In this document: positions 1 through 20,472 of the stretch, piece by piece
Layout of the letters: each line of letters begins with the position of its first letter
Position numbering within the stretch: position 1 is the first letter of the stretch
Virus record (IMG/VR): IMGVR_UViG_2617270980_000003
Length of the DNA stretch: 64,000 nt
From: a virus
Taxonomy: Duplodnaviria; Heunggongvirae; Uroviricota; Caudoviricetes
Direction: 5' to 3' (one strand)
Notes under the pieces: generated by a model
The model's input: the letters and a program-made list of their open reading frames with translations, nothing else
Databases searched by the model: none
Told to the model about the DNA's origin: nothing
Program-made: the position numbers and the translations under genes

Positions 1-304
1 GCACGTTTTCGGTGAACGCACTCTGGCCACACTGGAGCGTCTTCTGAGCCTGCTGTCGGCCTTTGAGGTCGTGGTATGGATGACGGATGGCTGGCCGCTG
101 TATGAATCACGCCTGAAGGGAAAGCTGCACGTTATCAGCAAGCGTTACACTCAGCGCATTGAGCGACATAATCTGAATCTGAGACAACATCTGGCAAGGC
201 TGGGACGGAAGTCGCTGTCGTTCTCAAAATCGGTGGAGCTGCATGACAAGGTCATCGGGCATTATCTGAACATAAAACACTATCAGTAAGTTGGAGTCAC
301 TACC
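1..304 (+). mobile_element. IS1 insertion sequence, partial (right end only; rest lies left of the window)
   Basis: Frame from base 2 reads [95 protein letters not shown], which matches the InsB C-terminus as recalled; IS1-type terminus ...GTTGGAGTCACTACC ends at ~304. Confidence 0.9.
2..289 (+). CDS. insB: IS1 transposase InsB, C-terminal fragment (5' end outside window)
   Basis: Open frame from window edge to TAA at 287-289; sequence identity to InsB C-terminus as recalled. Confidence 0.9.
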
Positions 305-502
305 CAGTAACTCCGGGTATGAACTGCGCAATACACCAGTCCGGTTATATACAGCCCAGACAGTTCTTTTTATTCTGGCAGCAATATCCTTAACCGGGGT
401 GGATGAATAAAGCGCAATCAGCAGCGCATCTTCTTCAGGTGTCCACGGACGGACATGAGCGGGGGCGCGACCTTTTAGTCCCATGGGTTGTAATTTCATC
501 AT
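305..502 (-). pseudogene. Mu-like early gene (HTH-like protein) truncated at its 3' end by IS1
   Basis: ORF 224..502 begins MMKLQPMGLKGRAPAHVRPWTPEEDALLIALYSSTPVKDIAARIKRTVWAVYNRTGVLRSSYPELLG and then runs into reverse-complemented IS1 terminus; native C-terminus lost. Confidence 0.5.
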
Positions 503-505
503 GCA

Positions 506-1021
506 TCACCCCCTGACTCGCTTTTCAGCAGCATAAAACTCATCAGACAGTATTTCGGTCATTTTCTGTTTTGCGGGTTTTACGCCGCACTGAAGGTAAA
601 TCACATCGTCAACGCAGAACCACTTCACAGGGCCAAACAGGATTGCCGAGAAATCAATACCCAACCAGAACAACAGCGCATCGGTTCTGGCATACGTGAC
701 GGGCGAATATTCACGCCACAGACTGTTCAGTTCATCAGAGGCAACACGCAGGGTTTTAGGGATACGTGATGTGCGCGGTGTGCAGCTCCAGCCATTCGAC
801 GCAGTCGGTTTTCGCCATAAGTCGCGATGAAAAGGATATTTGTCCTCCGTAAAACGCAGTCCCTTAAAGTAAAATCCACTGATACCGGATACAAATACCG
901 ACCGGCACGCAACATTCAGCACGGCCTCAAGGCGTTTTGCCTCATCCTTAACTTTCTGGCAGTCCTGCTGGTATTTTTGCCACGCAGCCAGCGCGGAAGG
1001 GTTTGATGTTTTAAAGAACAT
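506..1021 (-). CDS. hypothetical protein, Mu-like early region
   Basis: 171-aa ORF abutting neighbouring ORFs on the same strand; no recognised motif. Confidence 0.45.
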   Translation of the reverse strand: MFFKTSNPSALAAWQKYQQDCQKVKDEAKRLEAVLNVACRSVFVSGISGFYFKGLRFTEDKYPFHRDLWRKPTASNGWSCTPRTSRIPKTLRVASDELNSLWREYSPVTYARTDALLFWLGIDFSAILFGPVKWFCVDDVIYLQCGVKPAKQKMTEILSDEFYAAEKRVRG

Positions 1022-11682: not shown

Positions 11683-12012
11683 CTATGCCACGACCTGTTC
11701 AAAATCTGCCGTTATGGTTACCCACAACGCCCCCACGCTTGCCGACCATTTACGACAAACCACCCTGATCGGCTTCCAGTCATAAGGTGGCGTCCACTGA
11801 AATGCGCGGACGCCACCGTGCCGTTCCAGAAAGGCTTTTAAAGATGGGTGTTCACATTTACGAACACGTATCGTCACGCTGTAAATCGACAACTGGTTAT
11901 TCAGTCCCGCCGCACGACGCTGTTCATAACCATCGCCCAGCTTCACTGTCACCACTTTCGGCTCTGATACCACATTCATATCCGGGCGCACTTTCCAGTG
12001 AAACGTCTCCAT
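11683..12012 (-). CDS. M: Lambda M-like minor tail protein
   Basis: 109 aa, follows tape measure gene. Confidence 0.75.
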   Translation of the reverse strand: METFHWKVRPDMNVVSEPKVVTVKLGDGYEQRRAAGLNNQLSIYSVTIRVRKCEHPSLKAFLERHGGVRAFQWTPPYDWKPIRVVCRKWSASVGALWVTITADFEQVVA

Positions 12013-15000
12013 TACCGATATGCTCCACTTAACCGACCACCATCACGGGCCTGCTGTTGCATAAAGTCCGCTGCCGCTTTTTTCCCAAGGTCATAAACCA
12101 CCTTCAGGGCAGCCGGACCTATCTGCCCGTTCGTGCCATCGTTATTGATCTCGATGTTGTACTGCGGGGCAAACATCGCCATACCTGAACCACCAATATC
12201 CGCCACAACCCCCAGCTTACCGTCAGCACCACGACGCAGTGGCAGAATGGCTTCAGGTCCAGCTTCCCCCATCACACCCGCGCCTTTTGCAAAAGCAAAA
12301 AACGTCGGACGGTTAACCACCGTGCCACTGTAACGACTCAAATCAGCAGACTGATAAATCCCCCCATTGGCATTCAGGGAAAGGCTGCTGAGATCAAATC
12401 CCAGTACACTGCCAATCCCTTTTATCGATTTCATCATGGTTGCCTGCGCCAGGATTTTCGCCATATCTGACAGCACCGAAGAGGTGAAGGATTTGAAGTT
12501 GAGTTTGCCGGTAGTGACAAAAGTTGCCAGGCCATTTCCCATGTTGCTGAAGGCTGATGAGAACCCCTGTTCTGCTGTTCCTGCCGTATTGTCTGCATCC
12601 ACGGTAAAATCCTGAAATGCACGCAGGACTCCGTTTTTCCAGTTACCCTGCACAACTTCAAGCTGTTGCCAGTAACGGCGATTCTCATTCAGTTGTCGGT
12701 TCAGGCTCTCCGTCAGCGCCTGCTCGGCCTTTCTGTAGTCATCCGTGTTATATGTCCCTTTCTGCTCACTATCCCGCCTCAACTGCTCCAGCTGTTGCTG
12801 GTATTTCTGGCGAAGACTCAGTTGTACCTGATATCGCTGCCGCTGCTGATCACCCATACCCACCGTGGCGATATCCAGGTCATGTTGCTGACGCTGAGCG
12901 CGCTCTTCTTCAGCCAGTTGACTGGTCAGCTGAATTGTTTTTTTCTTCAGATCGTTGAGTGCCGTTTGTTTCTGAAGCTCCTGCTGTTTTACATCCAGCA
13001 GCGTCAGTGCCTGAATCAGTTCATCTTTACGGGCCAGCACACTCTTTTCATCTGCCGTCAGTTTTTTCCCGTCCAGATCGCTGATGCGCTGCTGCAGAGC
13101 CAGAAGCTGTTTATGCGCTTCTGTCATCTTTTCAGTGGCAATGCCTGCTGACTGTCTTGCAGCAGCAATCTGTCCTTCCACCTGTGCCTGTTGCTGACTG
13201 TACTGCAGCAATAACCGGGTGGCCTCATCATTACGGGTTTCGCGTGTTTTTTTCTTACCGGATGCCAGGGCTTTCTCGTAACGTTCATTTTCACGTTGTA
13301 TCGCCGCATCCCTGACAGCCTGGTCGGCGTACTGCATGGCATTAATACGCGCAATTTCACGCTGATGTCGTGCTGCTTCCGTTTCATTCATCCGGTTCAG
13401 TGCAGCATTTTCAGCATTACGTCGTTTCTGTTGCTCCTGATAATTCCGCTCTGCCTGCTCTTTTGCATCCTGCAAATCCTTCTGGCGTTTTTTCTCCTGA
13501 AGATCGTTAAGACGCTGCTGATCGTATTCAACCTGAGAAGATGATGCCGTCCAGGGGAGTCTTTTCGCCCGCGACACTTTCTCCTGTAAAGCGGTAATCT
13601 GTTCATCCAGCGAGTCTTCACGACCAATATTCATGGCCGCATCCCAGAAACGACTCCACAAATCAGACAGATACTTCAGCGTACTGCCAAGCGCATTGAG
13701 GTTATTATCAATATCCGCAGTACGCCGACCGGTTTCCTCTGCCAGTGCAGACATGGCTATCCGTGCAGCATCACTGGACCGTCCCTGATCCCCAAGGACA
13801 CGTATCTGCTCAAGCTGAGTGGCAGTAAGAAAATGCAGCTCATTGTCCAGAGCCTTCGCGGCATTTACAGGATCATCCTTCAGCCGCTTAAACTGATTTA
13901 TGGTATCGCTGACCGACTGGCCAACCGATCGCTCCATCTGTGCGGCAGCTCTCGCCACCATACCGATATCGTTTCCACGAAATGCACCACTCCCCACCAC
14001 CTGCGCCAACGCACCGGCTGCAGCATGTTGCGTGATACCATTCCCGGAAATAGCACGACTGAGCGTCCACAGCTGCCCGGCAGTGACTCCGGCATAATGC
14101 CCCGTCAGCGACAACTGGCGGTTAAATTCTTCCCCCTCCTTCTGACCGTCATACCAGGCTTTACCCAGACCATAGACGGCCGCGGCAATACCGCCAATAA
14201 CCCCGCCAAGCATCATGCCTTTCGGTGACATCAGTGTGTCTATCCATCCGGCACGGTTAGCCAGCGTTATCCCGGATCCCCTCAGCGCCCCTAAATTGCC
14301 GCGGGCCAGTTCACCTATCAGAACGCCTATCTCCTGGCGGGCTGCTGCACTTTTCAGACCCAGCGAATGCGTGGCTTTTCCTGCCTGCTCCATTTTGCGG
14401 ATATACACTTCTGCAGCACTGCTTACCCCCAGCTGGGCTGCCTTGGCACGAAGCAACTCAGAAGATGAAAGATTCTGGCGGGTTGCCTGCTCTTTAAGCT
14501 GACGGATAAACGCCACTTTCTGTCGGGTAGCCTCTTCCTCAGCCTGTGTAAGAACACGGGTTTTCGCAGTAACCTCAGAAATCAGCGCCAGATAATCCTG
14601 CTGACCAATCCCGCCACTGTTTCTGGCCTGTCGGATCTGCTGCTGAATACGCTGTAATTCCTGCAGCCCCGCACTGGCCTGTTTCACACTGTCAATCTGA
14701 CGATAAAACGCAGCAGCCGCTTTATCCTGAGCCTCCGCCAGAGCCATGGCCTGCGCCTGTTCCTCGCGCATTTTCTGGCTCAGCGCCTCCATGCGCTGGC
14801 GGGTTTTCTCCACCTCGCGGGCCATGCGTTCATGAGCCTGTGCGTTCTTCTCCACCGTCTGCGCATGGACGGATGCGGCTGTTGCAGCCGAAGAAGCCGC
14901 CTGCGTTGTCTGCCGGGCGGCCTGAGTCTGACGCTCCATAAAACGCTGCATACGGGCAGAAGACCGTTCTGCATCGCTGGCTGCACCATTCAGAAGGTTT

Positions 15001-15107
15001 TTGATACGGGGAATTTCATTTTTAAACTCTGCCGCATCAATCCCCAAATCAATGACCAGGTTGGCTATCTGGTCCATAACGCACACCTCCGGAAATACCT
15101 TCCCCAA
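12012..15107 (-). CDS. H: Tail tape measure protein (lambda H-like)
   Basis: 1031 aa, coiled-coil/Gln-Ala-rich repeats; downstream of G/T. Confidence 0.85.
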   Translation of the reverse strand: MGKVFPEVCVMDQIANLVIDLGIDAAEFKNEIPRIKNLLNGAASDAERSSARMQRFMERQTQAARQTTQAASSAATAASVHAQTVEKNAQAHERMAREVEKTRQRMEALSQKMREEQAQAMALAEAQDKAAAAFYRQIDSVKQASAGLQELQRIQQQIRQARNSGGIGQQDYLALISEVTAKTRVLTQAEEEATRQKVAFIRQLKEQATRQNLSSSELLRAKAAQLGVSSAAEVYIRKMEQAGKATHSLGLKSAAARQEIGVLIGELARGNLGALRGSGITLANRAGWIDTLMSPKGMMLGGVIGGIAAAVYGLGKAWYDGQKEGEEFNRQLSLTGHYAGVTAGQLWTLSRAISGNGITQHAAAGALAQVVGSGAFRGNDIGMVARAAAQMERSVGQSVSDTINQFKRLKDDPVNAAKALDNELHFLTATQLEQIRVLGDQGRSSDAARIAMSALAEETGRRTADIDNNLNALGSTLKYLSDLWSRFWDAAMNIGREDSLDEQITALQEKVSRAKRLPWTASSSQVEYDQQRLNDLQEKKRQKDLQDAKEQAERNYQEQQKRRNAENAALNRMNETEAARHQREIARINAMQYADQAVRDAAIQRENERYEKALASGKKKTRETRNDEATRLLLQYSQQQAQVEGQIAAARQSAGIATEKMTEAHKQLLALQQRISDLDGKKLTADEKSVLARKDELIQALTLLDVKQQELQKQTALNDLKKKTIQLTSQLAEEERAQRQQHDLDIATVGMGDQQRQRYQVQLSLRQKYQQQLEQLRRDSEQKGTYNTDDYRKAEQALTESLNRQLNENRRYWQQLEVVQGNWKNGVLRAFQDFTVDADNTAGTAEQGFSSAFSNMGNGLATFVTTGKLNFKSFTSSVLSDMAKILAQATMMKSIKGIGSVLGFDLSSLSLNANGGIYQSADLSRYSGTVVNRPTFFAFAKGAGVMGEAGPEAILPLRRGADGKLGVVADIGGSGMAMFAPQYNIEINNDGTNGQIGPAALKVVYDLGKKAAADFMQQQARDGGRLSGAYR

Positions 15108-15378
15108 GATGCATCAGTTCTTCGTCCGTTCGCTCCGGTATCCCGTTCTCTTCCGGTAAAAGGCTGAAATCAGCCACCGCAGCATCACTGCTGCCGGACA
15201 CCATTCTCACGATCAATGCCTTCAGCGAGGCAAACTGCGCATCCATCCACACATCACTGAAGCTCTGCATCCGGAAATAATCGCCCCACTCACCAAGCTC
15301 AGTGGCCGACATTTCCGACAGCATCCGCCGCCAGTCTGCCCGCCTGAACTCCCGGGCAAGCCGCATGACAAACTGCAT
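15049..15378 (-). CDS. T: T-frame segment of tail assembly chaperone G-T (expressed by -1 frameshift from G)
   Basis: ORF in -1 frame relative to G, beginning just after G stop; conserved lambda G/GT arrangement. Confidence 0.65.
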   Translation of the reverse strand: MQFVMRLAREFRRADWRRMLSEMSATELGEWGDYFRMQSFSDVWMDAQFASLKALIVRMVSGSSDAAVADFSLLPEENGIPERTDEELMHLGEGISGGVRYGPDSQPGH

Positions 15379-15386
15379 TTCCCGCG

Positions 15387-15815
15387 TCAGGACTTTTCCG
15401 GCGTCAGCACCTCATGCTCCAAATCCCCGGCATTCTCAATGGCTCCCATACCGCTCAGCGACAGAACCATCTCCGCCCCCGCTCCCAGGGCATCATACGA
15501 CCATGTTGTAATAACGGATGCGCAAAGCGTCTCAACATCCTGAGACTGTTCCGCATTCCACAGTGAGCGGGAAACCAGCCAGGCATTGATATCCATCCCC
15601 ATCCGTAGAAAAGCAATCTGTCGTTCAGCCTCCGGCAGTTCTCCCTCTTCGGCATCAAACTTTGCCGCTCGCTGCTGAACAAACGCCAGATATTCAATTC
15701 TCTGCAGCCCGGACAGCTCACTGAGCACCACGGACTGCTTTTCATAATTAAACGTGCCCTGTTTCAGAAACATCATGTTCTCCACCTGCAAAAAAGCCCC
15801 GGATAACCGGGGCAA
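15387..15815 (-). CDS. G: Tail assembly chaperone G
   Basis: 142 aa (lambda G 140 aa), between V and T/H. Confidence 0.8.
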   Translation of the reverse strand: MPRLSGAFLQVENMMFLKQGTFNYEKQSVVLSELSGLQRIEYLAFVQQRAAKFDAEEGELPEAERQIAFLRMGMDINAWLVSRSLWNAEQSQDVETLCASVITTWSYDALGAGAEMVLSLSGMGAIENAGDLEHEVLTPEKS

Positions 15816-15833: not shown

Positions 15834-16523
15834 TTAACCTGCGGCGCTGACAGCCACCGTAGCCACTGCCACAAAATCGCCGTCAGAAGTCATGCCCACA
15901 ATGCTGACACTGCCCTGCTTCACGCCTTTCACCGTGGCCACAAGCCCGTTCAGGGTCACCGTGGCAGTCTGTGGATCTGTCGAATGCACACTGATCGCTT
16001 TGTCACTGGCTCCGTCAGGTTTTACTGTAAAGGTCAGCGTGGTGGTTGCTCCCACTTTTACACTGGCAGATGCCGGTGCCACCGTCAGCCCGGTAACGCC
16101 CACGATTTCAGTGCCTTCCTCTGCCAGATACGGACGCCCCACACCGCTGATTTTCACTGTGCGGGTCATCACGTCTTTTGAGGCAATGGTTTTACCCAGT
16201 GAACTCAGCCAGCCACGGAAAACATCAACAGTACCGTTGGGATATTTGATACGAAAAGCGCAGACTTCACCGGAGTCGAACAACTGAACCAGTTTTTTCT
16301 GCCCGCTGTCCCCCGGACGCCAGGCCAGCGTCGCCGAAGTATCACCGACTGATTTCTGCCCCTGGGTTGTCGTTTTCCAGTCTGCATTTTCATCATCGAG
16401 ATAAGTGTCATCTTCTGCATCAGCGGTCATTTCGCCAGGTTGCAGATCCTTCACCATCGCAAGACGCAGCCAGTCAGTGTCCGATAAAGGGTTCGCAAAC
16501 GCATCGCCCTTGCCGGTATACAT
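15834..16523 (-). CDS. V: Major tail protein V-like
   Basis: 229 aa; ...ANPLSD.DW.RLA.VKDL.PGE... and ...YKIRFPNGTVDVFRGW.SS.GK... match lambda V as recalled. Confidence 0.85.
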   Translation of the reverse strand: MYTGKGDAFANPLSDTDWLRLAMVKDLQPGEMTADAEDDTYLDDENADWKTTTQGQKSVGDTSATLAWRPGDSGQKKLVQLFDSGEVCAFRIKYPNGTVDVFRGWLSSLGKTIASKDVMTRTVKISGVGRPYLAEEGTEIVGVTGLTVAPASASVKVGATTTLTFTVKPDGASDKAISVHSTDPQTATVTLNGLVATVKGVKQGSVSIVGMTSDGDFVAVATVAVSAAG

Positions 16524-18252: not shown

Positions 18253-20472
18253 TTACGCCGTACATTTAACCAGACCGCGGTGATCAACTGGCGCGACACC
18301 GGCGTCAATACGCACTTTCGTTGTCACGCCATCCACACTGAAGCCCTCCATCTGATCAATATATGGCGTATCCACACCGTTAAGATAAGCCACTTCAATC
18401 GTATCGGAGCCTTTTGACGCAGCCAGGTAGAAGGTGATCTGGCTGTTATCATCAAGACGAGGCTCTGCAATAACGGTCGCAAAATCTTTCACCGGGTTAA
18501 TAATACCGGCGTTAATGTCAGCCCCCTTGACACTTGAGGAGCGAATGACCTGGTTAGCAACAGACTCCATCGCCGTCGGTACCAGTACGAACGCAGGACG
18601 AATATTCAGATGACGCTCCCCCTCTTTCTGAACGCGCATCAACTGGCGGGCTTTATCCAGCGATGCCACGTCCATTGCAGCGCTCTCCAGTACGTTTGCA
18701 TGTTTCGCTTTATCGAACAGACTTACATTATCTGTGGAGATTTTCGGGTTAGACGTCAGAATGGCATAAACCAGATCGGCAATAGTGGATTTCGCCGCAC
18801 GGCCCAGTTTCATCGGGACATCGGTCAGCATATTCAGATCATCATTGATAATGGCCTGACGGGTGATACTGAACAGCTCGCCATAGGTCGCCAGTGCAAT
18901 AGTGGCCTGTTTATCTCCGGTGGTGACGTATTTATATTCCGCCCCTTCACGCACCTGACGCAGAGCACTGAAGCCCCCCATACCCACACGATGGGCAATT
19001 TTAAAATCAGACAACTGACCTTTCCGCGTCCACTGTTCATAGGTTTCAGGGGCATCTTCCCAGCCCTGCAGAATGGCTTTGTTCGCAACATCCAGCAGAA
19101 TATTACCGAAGTCAGACGTACTGTGTGTGAACGCCGCACCGACCATCTGCATCGGGTTATAACCGGAAACCCCAATACCCCGTTCAGTTAGTGACATACG
19201 GGCATATTCACGCAGGGTCATCCCGTTGTAGACATTATCACGTTCGGTTTTTTCAAATCCGGCACGCGCCATCAGCGCCTGGCGAATCCCGTCCCCCACA
19301 AAATTACCGTTACCGGCATAAATATGAGCCGGGGTATTTTTATTGGATGGCGTGGACTCGCGCCCCATCTCGTTCAACAGCTTTTCACGGGCCTGCTCCA
19401 GCGAACATTCAGGATCGGCAAGACACTGAGCCTGCAGCGTCTGATAACGCCCGCCAAACATGGCAAACAGATCACTAATACCGTTTACACGCGCTTTTTG
19501 CTCTGCCAGTACCTGCGCACGGATGCTGTTTTCATCCACCACGGGTGCTGCTGCCTGCACTGGCGTCCGGGAGGCTTCAGATTCATTATCCTGTACGCGT
19601 GGAGCACTGTTGCGTGGCGGAGTAATCATGTTTCGAATGGATTCCGGCATCTTTTTAAATTCCTCTGTACGTTTTGACTGAATACATGCCATTGCCTTAA
19701 CGGCTGGCGTTACCTGATCAGCAAATCCATGTGCCAGACATTCGGCACCGGACATCCAGGTCTCATCCGCCAGCATGGCAGCAATTTCATCGGTGGTTTT
19801 CCCGGTTTTCTGTGCATAAGCGGGTAACAGAACCGCCTCAACTTTATCGAGTAGGTCGGCATAGGTGCGCATGTCCTCCGCATCACCGCCCGTAAAGCCA
19901 AATGGTTTATGAATCATCATGAAGGTGTTTTCCGGCATAATGACCGGGTTTCCTACCATCGCAATGACCGACGCCATTGACGCCGCCACACCGTCGACAT
20001 AAACGGTAATGGACGCACCATGTGTTTTCAGCGCATTAAAAATGGCGATGCCTTCAAAGACATCGCCACCCGGTGAATTAATATGGAGATTAATGTGGGT
20101 GATATCGCCCAGTGCATTCAGATCACTGATAAACTGCTTCGCTGTAACACCCCAGAAACCAATCTCGTCATAAATATAAATATCCGCGTCACTCTGGTGA
20201 CCAGCCTGCATCCTGAACCAGGAATTATTCTTCGGGCTGGTCGTCGGTGTGCTGCGGCTCCTGTCGTTTCGTTGCGGCACTACTGCCTCCTTTATCACTG
20301 GCCGGATCGGTATCAAATACCAGATCCAGCTTGCGGTTTTCATCAATTTCGGCCTTGCGCCGACGTTTGACATCATCCGGATTACGACCACCAGCACGTA
20401 CCCAGTCTGATTCTGTCGCCGCTCCACCACGAATCTGGATTTTCCAGGCCTCAGCCTCCTTAACAGGGTCAA
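18253..20472 (-). CDS. Prohead protease (ClpP/S49-like) fused to major capsid protein; likely true start ATG 20211 (652 aa)
   Basis: N-terminal half has protease-like ...INSPGGDVFEGIAIFNALKTHGASITVYVDGVAASMASVI...; long C-terminal region in capsid position; the 20211 start overlaps portal stop by ~14 nt. Confidence 0.7.
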   Translation of the reverse strand: MTLLRRLRPGKSRFVVERRQNQTGYVLVVVIRMMSNVGARPKLMKTASWIWYLIPIRPVIKEAVVPQRNDRSRSTPTTSPKNNSWFRMQAGHQSDADIYIYDEIGFWGVTAKQFISDLNALGDITHINLHINSPGGDVFEGIAIFNALKTHGASITVYVDGVAASMASVIAMVGNPVIMPENTFMMIHKPFGFTGGDAEDMRTYADLLDKVEAVLLPAYAQKTGKTTDEIAAMLADETWMSGAECLAHGFADQVTPAVKAMACIQSKRTEEFKKMPESIRNMITPPRNSAPRVQDNESEASRTPVQAAAPVVDENSIRAQVLAEQKARVNGISDLFAMFGGRYQTLQAQCLADPECSLEQAREKLLNEMGRESTPSNKNTPAHIYAGNGNFVGDGIRQALMARAGFEKTERDNVYNGMTLREYARMSLTERGIGVSGYNPMQMVGAAFTHSTSDFGNILLDVANKAILQGWEDAPETYEQWTRKGQLSDFKIAHRVGMGGFSALRQVREGAEYKYVTTGDKQATIALATYGELFSITRQAIINDDLNMLTDVPMKLGRAAKSTIADLVYAILTSNPKISTDNVSLFDKAKHANVLESAAMDVASLDKARQLMRVQKEGERHLNIRPAFVLVPTAMESVANQVIRSSSVKGADINAGIINPVKDFATVIAEPRLDDNSQITFYLAASKGSDTIEVAYLNGVDTPYIDQMEGFSVDGVTTKVRIDAGVAPVDHRGLVKCTA

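What the first reader, a model, noticed from the sequence alone, without database searches (positions are those of the whole stretch)
15049..15815. G/GT tail chaperone frameshift without a canonical GGGAAAG before the G stop
The T-frame ORF is in the -1 frame relative to G, as expected, but the end of G reads ...CCG GAA AAG TCC TGA and the canonical lambda heptamer GGGAAAG occurs only after the G stop. The slip site may be non-canonical.
Basis: seen in the sequence. Interest (0 to 1): 0.2.

Follow-up and report, generated by a model that had tools for sequence, protein, structure and literature searches.

The report
Ordinary phage tail-chaperone frameshift site
This is the usual lambda-type G/GT tail-chaperone frameshift of a common E. 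coli prophage, using the heptamer G GAA AAG (one base different from lambda's G GGA AAG), which is the commonest site in this gene family and is already annotated as the slip site in phages N15 and phi80.

Summary
The claim that GGGAAAG follows the stop is wrong. That sequence is GGGAAAT (15383..15377), it is in the wrong phase, and the span holds no GGGAAAG.

The slip site is G GAA AAG (15399..15393). Its lysine aligns with the lysine of lambda's G GGA AAG. Both frames are open for only 22 nt, and this is the only Z_ZZN motif there. All 80 close relatives keep it. Among 57 distinct junctions from Enterobacterales and phages, 46 have G GAA AAG and 9 the lambda form. Heptamer position 1, a synonymous site, is G in 55 of 57, and coding periodicity changes frame at the heptamer.

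The N15 and phi80 records annotate GGAAAAG as the -1 slippery sequence. I found no conserved stimulator and no conserved T start codon. One nuance: in vitro this heptamer is reported as weakly slippery.

Verdict: already known, low interest.

The parts
15387..15776 (-). Gene G, tail assembly chaperone. 129 aa from ATG 15776, or 128 aa from the better-spaced ATG 15773. Stop TGA at 15389..15387.
   Evidence: PF06894 E 3.2e-39. TIGR01674 phage_lambda_G equivalog E 1e-55, covering profile positions 1-138 of 138. Frame analysis. SD GGAG lies 3 nt before ATG 15776 and 6 nt before ATG 15773. Relatives start MFLK.
15393..15399 (-). Proposed -1 slip heptamer G GAA AAG. P-site codon GAA is 15398..15396 and A-site codon AAG is 15395..15393.
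   Evidence: It is the only Z_ZZN motif in the overlap. Its Lys aligns with the Lys of lambda G GGA AAG. It is kept in 80 of 80 close relatives and in 46 of 57 distinct family junctions. Position 1 is G in 55 of 57. The same heptamer is annotated as the slippery sequence in N15 and phi80.
15390..15411 (-). The only stretch (22 nt) where both the G frame and the -1 frame are open. The shift must occur here.
   Evidence: The -1-frame stop TGA is at 15414..15412 and the G stop at 15389..15387. Across G GAA AAG loci the permitted window narrows to between 12 nt upstream of the heptamer and the last base of AAG.
15049..15393 (-). T segment read in the -1 frame after the slip: G 15393 is re-read, giving GTC CTG ACG CGG GAA ATG ..., with stop TGA at 15051..15049. 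The modelled GT fusion is 242 aa.
   Evidence: PF06223 E 3.9e-15. In the fusion, TIGR01715 phage_lam_T equivalog covers residues 133-239 and profile positions 1-111 of 111, E 2.3e-39. The -1-frame peptide directly after the slip is conserved, [VA]-x-x-x-E-[LM]-x-F.
15377..15383 (-). It lies after the G stop and in the wrong phase, and is not a slip site.
15376..15378 (-). ATG in the T frame. Databases use it as the 'T' start, but it is probably just an internal Met of GT.
   Evidence: ATG is present in only 6 of 55 distinct contexts, and it is CTG (Leu) in 33. The SD pairing is weak and badly spaced, -4.3 kcal/mol against -10.8 for H.
15408..15413 (-). SD-like GAGGTG, 8 nt upstream of the heptamer. 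A possible clade-specific stimulator, not conserved.
   Evidence: It is GAGGCG in 16 of 80 close relatives. No SD-like element is found in 27 of 46 G GAA AAG contexts.
15834..16523 (-). Gene V, major tail tube protein with a C-terminal Ig-like domain. Upstream neighbour of G.
   Evidence: PF16461 E 8.9e-66 and PF02368 E 1.5e-11.
12012..15077 (-). Gene H, tape measure protein. The likely start is ATG 15077 with SD GGAGGTG at 15090..15084, overlapping the end of T.
   Evidence: PF06791, PF09718 and PF24622. SD pairing is -10.8 kcal/mol.

Best explanation
This is the lambda-type G/GT tail assembly chaperone pair of an E. coli lambdoid prophage of the cdtI/mEp460/phi458 group.

Most ribosomes translate G to its TGA stop and make gpG. 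A small fraction slip back one base at G GAA AAG (15399..15393, minus strand). tRNA-Lys(UUU) in the A site moves from AAG to AAA. tRNA-Glu in the P site moves from GAA to GGA, giving G-C, G.U and A-U pairs. These ribosomes then read GTC CTG ACG... in the -1 frame and produce a 242-aa gpGT fusion.

By analogy with lambda, the G part binds the tape measure protein and the T part recruits the tail tube protein.

Shown here: the gene identities, the frames, the unique motif in the 22-nt overlap, its homology to lambda's slip position, and its conservation. Inferred: that slippage actually occurs, its rate, and that both tRNAs shift.
For: - G and T match the lambda G and T equivalogs end to end when joined at this site, and they lie between V and H.
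- Both frames are open for only 22 nt, and G GAA AAG is the only Z_ZZN motif there.
- The Lys of AAG aligns with lambda's slip-site Lys and is an invariant column in an otherwise variable C-terminal tail.
- 80 of 80 close relatives keep the heptamer, and the module is in 1,847 of 5,426 complete E. coli genomes.
- Of 57 distinct family junctions, 46 have G GAA AAG, 9 G GGA AAG, 1 A AAA AAG and 1 A GAA AAG. Heptamer position 1, a third-codon position, is G in 55 of 57 (1.78 bits, against 0.10-0.54 bits at the other upstream third positions), even though the codon changes among CCG, GCG, CTG and ACG.
- The least-constrained codon phase switches from the G frame upstream (0.16 bits) to the -1 frame downstream (0.75 against 1.47 and 1.28) at the heptamer.
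- Family-wide, -1-frame stops and G stops confine the shift to between 12 nt upstream of the heptamer and the end of AAG.
- The N15 and phi80 records annotate GGAAAAG as 'slippery sequence for -1 translational frameshift'. The Gifsy-1 record, with the identical CCG GAA AAG TCC TGA, calls T part of gpG by frameshifting.
- A_AAG is the most shift-prone tetramer in E. coli and is used with non-slippery preceding codons, for example in IS1222 at G_CGA_AAG (PMC5009743 and PMC4066793).
Against: - No experiment on this phage group was found, and none of the 17 near-identical phage records annotates the shift.
- In a reconstituted E. coli system, G GAA AAG was used as the 'less slippery' comparator and gave mainly 0-frame product, because tRNA-Glu has a second-position mismatch on GGA (PMC6924986).
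- Z_ZZN tetramers without a stimulator were barely above background in vivo (PMC4066793).
- I found no conserved stimulator. The efficiency may therefore be lower than lambda's, and the mechanism (one-tRNA or two-tRNA slip) is not resolved.
Confidence: 0.88

Rival explanations
1. T is made on its own. Ribosomes would start at ATG 15378, or reinitiate there after terminating at the G stop 8 nt upstream, giving a free 109-aa T protein with no fusion to G.
For: In this clade an ATG lies 8 nt after the G stop. Databases annotate T as a separate CDS. Termination-reinitiation over such a distance is known in bacteria (general knowledge).
Against: The ATG is present in only 6 of 55 distinct family contexts; it is CTG (Leu) in 33, and 26 contexts have no ATG in the first 20 codons of the -1 frame. 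Its SD pairing is weak (-4.3 kcal/mol) and abuts the ATG. The -1-frame codons between the heptamer and the ATG are conserved as protein, and -1-frame coding periodicity starts at the heptamer. The heptamer and its synonymous position 1 are conserved, which free T would not require. In lambda the functional product is the GT fusion (PMC5009743).
Confidence: 0.06
2. The shift is a single-tRNA event. Only tRNA-Lys would slip on A_AAG, with the P-site tRNA-Glu not re-pairing, possibly helped in this clade by the SD-like GAGGTG 8 nt upstream, as in dnaX.
For: A_AAG alone can direct -1 shifting, and natural sites with a non-slippery P-site codon exist, such as IS1222 and Bacillus cdd. GAA to GGA has a second-position mismatch. 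GAGGTG at 15413..15408 matches the anti-SD over 6 nt.
Against: Heptamer position 1 is G in 55 of 57 contexts despite changes of the encoded amino acid, and it is A in the one A AAA AAG locus. This fits selection for P-site re-pairing. The SD-like element is GAGGCG in 16 of 80 close relatives and absent from most of the family. This is a variant of the best explanation rather than a true alternative.
Confidence: 0.05
3. The T ORF is a decaying or non-functional remnant, or the junction is a sequencing or assembly error hiding a canonical site.
For: None beyond the absence of GGGAAAG.
Against: The junction is identical in 80 of 80 IMG/VR relatives and the module occurs in 1,847 complete E. coli genomes, including plaque-forming phages such as Ayreon, mEp460 and phi458. 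T matches its equivalog over its full length.
Confidence: 0.01

Closest known systems
Bacteriophage lambda G / G-T programmed -1 frameshift (Levin, Hendrix and Casjens 1993; Xu, Hendrix and Duda 2004, 2013, 2014, as cited in PMC5009743)
   Same: The G and T proteins are homologous (TIGR01674 and TIGR01715 equivalogs). The gene order V-G-T-H is the same. The shift is -1, at the same aligned lysine a few codons before the G stop. The A-site codon is AAG, and there is no conserved stimulator.
   Different: The P-site codon is GAA (Glu) rather than GGA (Gly), so the heptamer is G GAA AAG and not the X_XXY_YYZ form G GGA AAG. The overlap is shorter (22 nt against 61 nt). T is shorter: the fusion is 242 aa against 279 aa and lacks the second copy of the C-terminal GGVR[FY]G motif that lambda carries twice.
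Phage N15 genes 14/15 and phage phi80 G / G-T
   Same: Same protein family and the same heptamer, GGAAAAG, at the same position. Both records explicitly annotate it as 'slippery sequence for -1 translational frameshift'.
   Different: The G proteins are only about 34% identical to the window's G. Their G ORF runs 5 codons past the AAG (for phi80, for N15), against 1 codon here.
Gifsy-1 prophage (Salmonella) G/T
   Same: Closest annotated intermediate relative (54% identity in G) with the identical ending CCG GAA AAG TCC TGA. The record describes T as part of gpG by translational frameshifting.
   Different: The host is Salmonella. The record gives no slip-site feature.
A_AAG-type -1 sites with a non-slippery P-site codon (IS1222 G_CGA_AAG; Bacillus subtilis cdd A_CGA_AAG; NNA_AAG hexamers of Licznar et al. 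2003, as summarised in PMC5009743)
   Same: All rely on E. coli-type tRNA-Lys(mnm5s2UUU) moving from AAG to AAA, with imperfect P-site re-pairing.
   Different: The IS sites usually have a downstream pseudoknot or hairpin stimulator, and none is evident here. Here the P-site tRNA can still form a G.U pair at the second position, and position 1 is conserved.

Membership tests
Lambda-type G/GT tail assembly chaperone with programmed -1 frameshift | The upstream ORF is a gpG homologue | tested here: met
   PF06894 E 3.2e-39. TIGR01674 equivalog, 187 bits against a cutoff of 74, full profile length.
Lambda-type G/GT tail assembly chaperone with programmed -1 frameshift | A downstream segment in the -1 frame encodes a gpT homologue | tested here: met
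   PF06223 E 3.9e-15. TIGR01715 equivalog, 134 bits against a cutoff of 77, profile positions 1-111 of 111, starting 4 residues after the proposed slip. The frame is shown.
Lambda-type G/GT tail assembly chaperone with programmed -1 frameshift | Located between the major tail (tube) gene and the tape measure gene | tested here: met
   V (PF16461) is upstream and H (PF06791, PF09718) downstream on the same strand.
Lambda-type G/GT tail assembly chaperone with programmed -1 frameshift | A shift-prone motif in the G frame inside the G/-1-frame overlap, conserved among relatives | tested here: met
   G GAA AAG is the only Z_ZZN motif in the 22-nt overlap. It is kept in 80 of 80 close relatives, and 57 of 57 distinct family contexts have an in-frame A_AAG at this spot.
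Lambda-type G/GT tail assembly chaperone with programmed -1 frameshift | T lacks a conserved start codon of its own | tested here: met
   ATG at the window's position occurs in 6 of 55 contexts, and 26 of 55 have no ATG in the first 20 codons of the -1 frame.
Lambda-type G/GT tail assembly chaperone with programmed -1 frameshift | A GT fusion protein is actually made at a low ratio to G and is required for tail assembly | not testable with these tools
   This needs a reporter assay, western blot or mass spectrometry, and genetics.
Canonical X_XXY_YYZ slippery heptamer (as in lambda G GGA AAG or dnaX A AAA AAG) | The first three bases are identical, so the P-site tRNA re-pairs cognately or with a third-position wobble | tested here: not met
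   The heptamer is G GAA AAG. Re-pairing of tRNA-Glu on GGA needs a G.U pair at the second position (PMC6924986). This feature defines the motif class, not the G/GT family.
Canonical X_XXY_YYZ slippery heptamer (as in lambda G GGA AAG or dnaX A AAA AAG) | The A-site codon allows cognate re-pairing (ZZN to ZZZ), AAG being the best in E. coli | tested here: met
   A_AAG is in frame at 15396..15393. The hierarchy A_AAG >> others comes from PMC4066793.
Stimulated bacterial -1 PRF (dnaX / IS3 / IS911 type) | An upstream SD-like element and/or a downstream hairpin or pseudoknot at a fixed distance | tested here: inconclusive
   The window has GAGGTG 8 nt upstream, but it varies within the clade and is absent in 27 of 46 G GAA AAG contexts. 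The 70 nt downstream fold no better than shuffles (z = 0.06 for the window, family mean z = -1.4).

The most novel reading that the evidence does not exclude
G GAA AAG is reported as weakly slippery in vitro yet is the dominant G-T site in enterobacterial lambda-family phages, with a conserved synonymous G at position 1. The most novel reading is that it works through something not yet described. One possibility is efficient two-tRNA slippage that tolerates a second-position G.U pair by tRNA-Glu(mnm5s2UUC). Another is an unrecognised stimulator, such as the nascent peptide or the near-stop context (the G stop follows 1-5 codons later). Either could set a G:GT ratio different from lambda's roughly 30:1.
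Probability: 0.1. Interest if true: 0.35.

Novelty: already known. Interest (0 to 1): 0.12.

Why it matters
The practical value is for annotation. G and T of this very common prophage module (a third of complete E. coli genomes) are deposited as two separate CDSs, with T given an arbitrary start, although the real second product is most likely a 242-aa GT fusion joined at 15393. It also shows that lambda's GGGAAAG is the minority form in its own family, so searches restricted to X_XXY_YYZ heptamers (as in PMC4066793) will miss most G-T sites. The biology itself, a G/GT tail chaperone frameshift, is textbook.

Tried and rejected
- **Sequencing error:** rejected. The junction is identical in 80 of 80 IMG/VR relatives and the module is in 1,847 E. 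coli genomes.
- **GGGAAAG or GGGAAAT after the stop as the slip site:** rejected. It is GGGAAAT, downstream of the G stop and in the +1 phase.
- **Other slip sites in the overlap:** none. The overlap has only 7 codons, and family-wide bounds exclude positions outside the heptamer region.
- **Upstream SD-like stimulator:** present in the window (GAGGTG) but not conserved. The conserved GA[GA] there is a Glu codon.
- **Downstream RNA structure:** the 70 nt after the heptamer fold no better than shuffles in the window (z = 0.06) or Gifsy-1 (z = 0.84). The family mean of -1.4 is unremarkable and used mononucleotide shuffles. I did not run a covariation analysis.
- **Independent T initiation:** disfavoured.
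- **Transcriptional slippage:** a run of only four A is far shorter than the runs known to support RNA polymerase slippage (general knowledge; not tested).
- **Literature:** Xu et al. 2004 (Mol Cell) and Licznar et al. 2003 (EMBO J), which probably list this heptamer and the GAA_AAG hexamer efficiency, are not held in the library. Full-text searches for GGAAAAG with phage terms found only PMC6924986. The 2025 bioRxiv frameshift screen does not mention this motif.
- **Collection bias:** the viral-contig scan returned only close relatives at 95-100% identity, so family diversity came from the genome-contig scan and the phage records.

Full report
**What is in the sequence.** The genes lie on the minus strand in the lambda order V-G-T-H.
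- V is 16523..15834. It is a lambda-type tail tube protein (PF16461) with an Ig-like domain.
- G runs from ATG 15776, or the better-spaced ATG 15773, to TGA 15389..15387. It matches PF06894 at E 3.2e-39.
- A -1-frame reading frame is open from 15411 to TGA 15051..15049. It carries the T domain (PF06223, E 3.9e-15).
- H, the tape measure protein, starts most likely at ATG 15077 behind a strong SD.

G ends GTG CTG ACG CCG GAA AAG TCC TGA. A TGA in the -1 frame at 15414..15412 means that both frames are open together for only 22 nt, 15411..15390.

**Checking the observation.** The statement that GGGAAAG follows the stop is wrong. The sequence there is GGGAAAT (15383..15377), it is in the +1 phase relative to G, and there is no GGGAAAG on either strand anywhere in 15049..15815. 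The upper coordinate, 15815, is a mechanical TTG start inside a terminator hairpin, not the start of G.

**Locating the slip site.** I modelled a -1 shift at GAA AAG and aligned the product with lambda gpGT. Lambda's slip-site lysine falls exactly on the window's lysine...PVSAGK|VFDGELSF... against ...VLTPEK|VLTREMQF.... At the DNA level, lambda's G GGA AAG corresponds to the window's G GAA AAG (15399..15393), a single G-to-A difference. In an eight-member alignment of divergent G proteins, this lysine is an invariant column inside an otherwise variable C-terminal tail. The 242-aa fusion matches the NCBIfam equivalogs for G (residues 2-129, full profile) and for T (residues 133-239, full profile). 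Pfam agrees.

**Not an error, and very common.** The 861-bp region is 97-99.9% identical to phages phi458, Ayreon, cdtI and mEp460. It occurs in 1,847 of 5,426 complete E. coli genomes. All 80 close relatives fetched from IMG/VR keep CCGGAAAAGTC.

**Comparative evidence across the family.** Phage records and one genome per species gave 57 distinct junction contexts, which split as follows:

| Heptamer | Distinct contexts | Example |
|---|---|---|
| G GAA AAG | 46 | this window, N15, phi80, Gifsy-1 |
| G GGA AAG | 9 | lambda |
| A AAA AAG | 1 | VT1-Sakai |
| A GAA AAG | 1 | Morganella |

So the supposedly non-canonical form is the family's majority form. Further points:
- My anchoring required an in-frame A_AAG, so positions 4-7 are fixed by construction. 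Position 1 is not, and it is a third-codon position. It is G in 55 of 57 contexts (1.78 bits), against 0.10-0.54 bits at the other upstream third positions, while the codon itself varies among CCG, GCG, CTG and ACG.
- The one A AAA AAG locus has A at position 1. This is what selection for P-site re-pairing predicts: tRNA-Glu on GGA would pair G-C, G.U and A-U.
- The least-constrained codon phase is the G-frame third position upstream (0.16 bits). Downstream it is the -1-frame third position (0.75 bits, against 1.47 and 1.28), so coding constraint changes frame at the heptamer.
- Upstream -1-frame stops and G stops, which in Proteus follow AAG directly, confine the shift in G GAA AAG loci to between 12 nt upstream of the heptamer and the end of AAG.

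**Already annotated elsewhere.** The N15 RefSeq record and the phi80 record FN582354 each carry a misc_feature 'slippery sequence for -1 translational frameshift', and in both the sequence under it is GGAAAAG. Phi80 also has a joined gpG-T CDS. The Gifsy-1 record, with the identical ending CCG GAA AAG TCC TGA, describes T as part of gpG by frameshifting. HK97's G matches no NCBIfam family. It also has CGG GAA AAG in its overlap, and its record has a joined CDS 'translated due to a -1 frameshift'. I did not see the HK97 join coordinate, so I cannot say that HK97's annotated slip is at that motif.

**Mechanism and caveats.** The following comes from the literature.
- In lambda, roughly one gpGT is made per 30 gpG. 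G binds the tape measure and T recruits the tube protein (PMC5009743).
- In E. coli, A_AAG is by far the most shift-prone tetramer, because the single tRNA-Lys pairs well with AAA. Sites with a non-slippery preceding codon are used naturally, as in IS1222 and Bacillus cdd, and the preceding codon modulates efficiency (PMC5009743 and PMC4066793).
- Against high efficiency: tetramers without a stimulator were barely above background in vivo (0.147% against 0.112%).
- Peng et al. 2019 used exactly G GAA AAG as their 'less slippery' comparator and saw mainly 0-frame product (PMC6924986).

I looked for stimulators. An SD-like GAGGTG lies 8 nt upstream in the window, but it is GAGGCG in 16 of 80 close relatives, and no SD-like element is found in 27 of 46 G GAA AAG contexts. 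The 70 nt downstream fold no better than shuffles (window z = 0.06). The site is therefore secure, but the rate and the one-tRNA or two-tRNA mechanism remain inferred.

**Rivals.**
- Independent translation of T from ATG 15378 is disfavoured. That ATG exists in only 6 of 55 contexts and is CTG in 33. Its SD is weak and abuts the start (-4.3 kcal/mol, against -10.8 for H). The five -1-frame codons before it are conserved as protein.
- Sequencing error is excluded.
- Transcriptional slippage on a run of four A is implausible on general knowledge, and I did not test it.

**Verdict.** This is an ordinary member of a known system that uses a known and in fact prevalent slip heptamer. The only mildly interesting point is the contrast between the heptamer's dominance and position-1 conservation in nature and its reputation as weakly slippery in vitro. 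Interest is low and the finding is already known.

Noticed in passing
window 15796..15813 (minus strand), plus the T-run to about 15790: There is a strong intrinsic-terminator-like hairpin (7 G-C pairs, GCCCCGG-TTAT-CCGGGGC, then TTTTTT) in the 57-nt gap between the tail tube gene V and G. A terminator or stem-loop is annotated at the same place in Ayreon, mEp460, N15 and HK97. A V-G attenuator may therefore be a conserved way of lowering G/GT/H expression relative to V.
   Followed up: partly
L134 and L138-L151: A junction identical to lambda's is shared by at least 12 loci (L134 and L138-L148 in the listing, which is cut off at that point). Most of these, and L149-L151, which match the query with the same identity and extent, are short, low-coverage contigs in assemblies of unrelated organisms (Kitasatospora, Oceanobacillus, Neobacillus, Shewanella, Pseudomonas, Leeuwenhoekiella, Pseudoxanthomonas, Psychrobacter and others). 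They look like lambda DNA contamination (spike-in or size standard) in public assemblies. L092, labelled 'MAG: Bacillota bacterium', carries a G 98% identical to the window's and is probably a misbinned E. coli prophage contig.
   Followed up: partly
window 18253..20472 (minus strand): A single 739-aa ORF combines a ClpP-type protease domain (PF00574, residues 95-255) with a phage major capsid domain (PF25209, residues 441-736). This looks like a prohead protease-capsid fusion. The mechanical TTG start is probably too far upstream.
   Followed up: partly
window 15075..15107 (minus strand): The mechanical ORF list starts the tape measure gene at TTG 15107. ATG 15077, preceded by GGAGGTG (15090..15084; -10.8 kcal/mol to the anti-SD), is the likely start and overlaps the last 9 codons of T. 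The conserved T C-terminus GGVRYG is encoded by the same bases as this SD.
   Followed up: partly
L002 986..1003 (mEp460), equivalent to about window 15175..15160: The mEp460 record annotates a rho-independent terminator inside the T coding region. My scan of the window found no terminator-like site there.
   Followed up: no
L166 (HK97) 173..559: HK97's G protein has no detectable similarity to the lambda G family (no NCBIfam hit). It nevertheless has an in-frame G GAA AAG in its G/-1-frame overlap. This suggests either convergent use of this heptamer or very deep conservation of it.
   Followed up: partly
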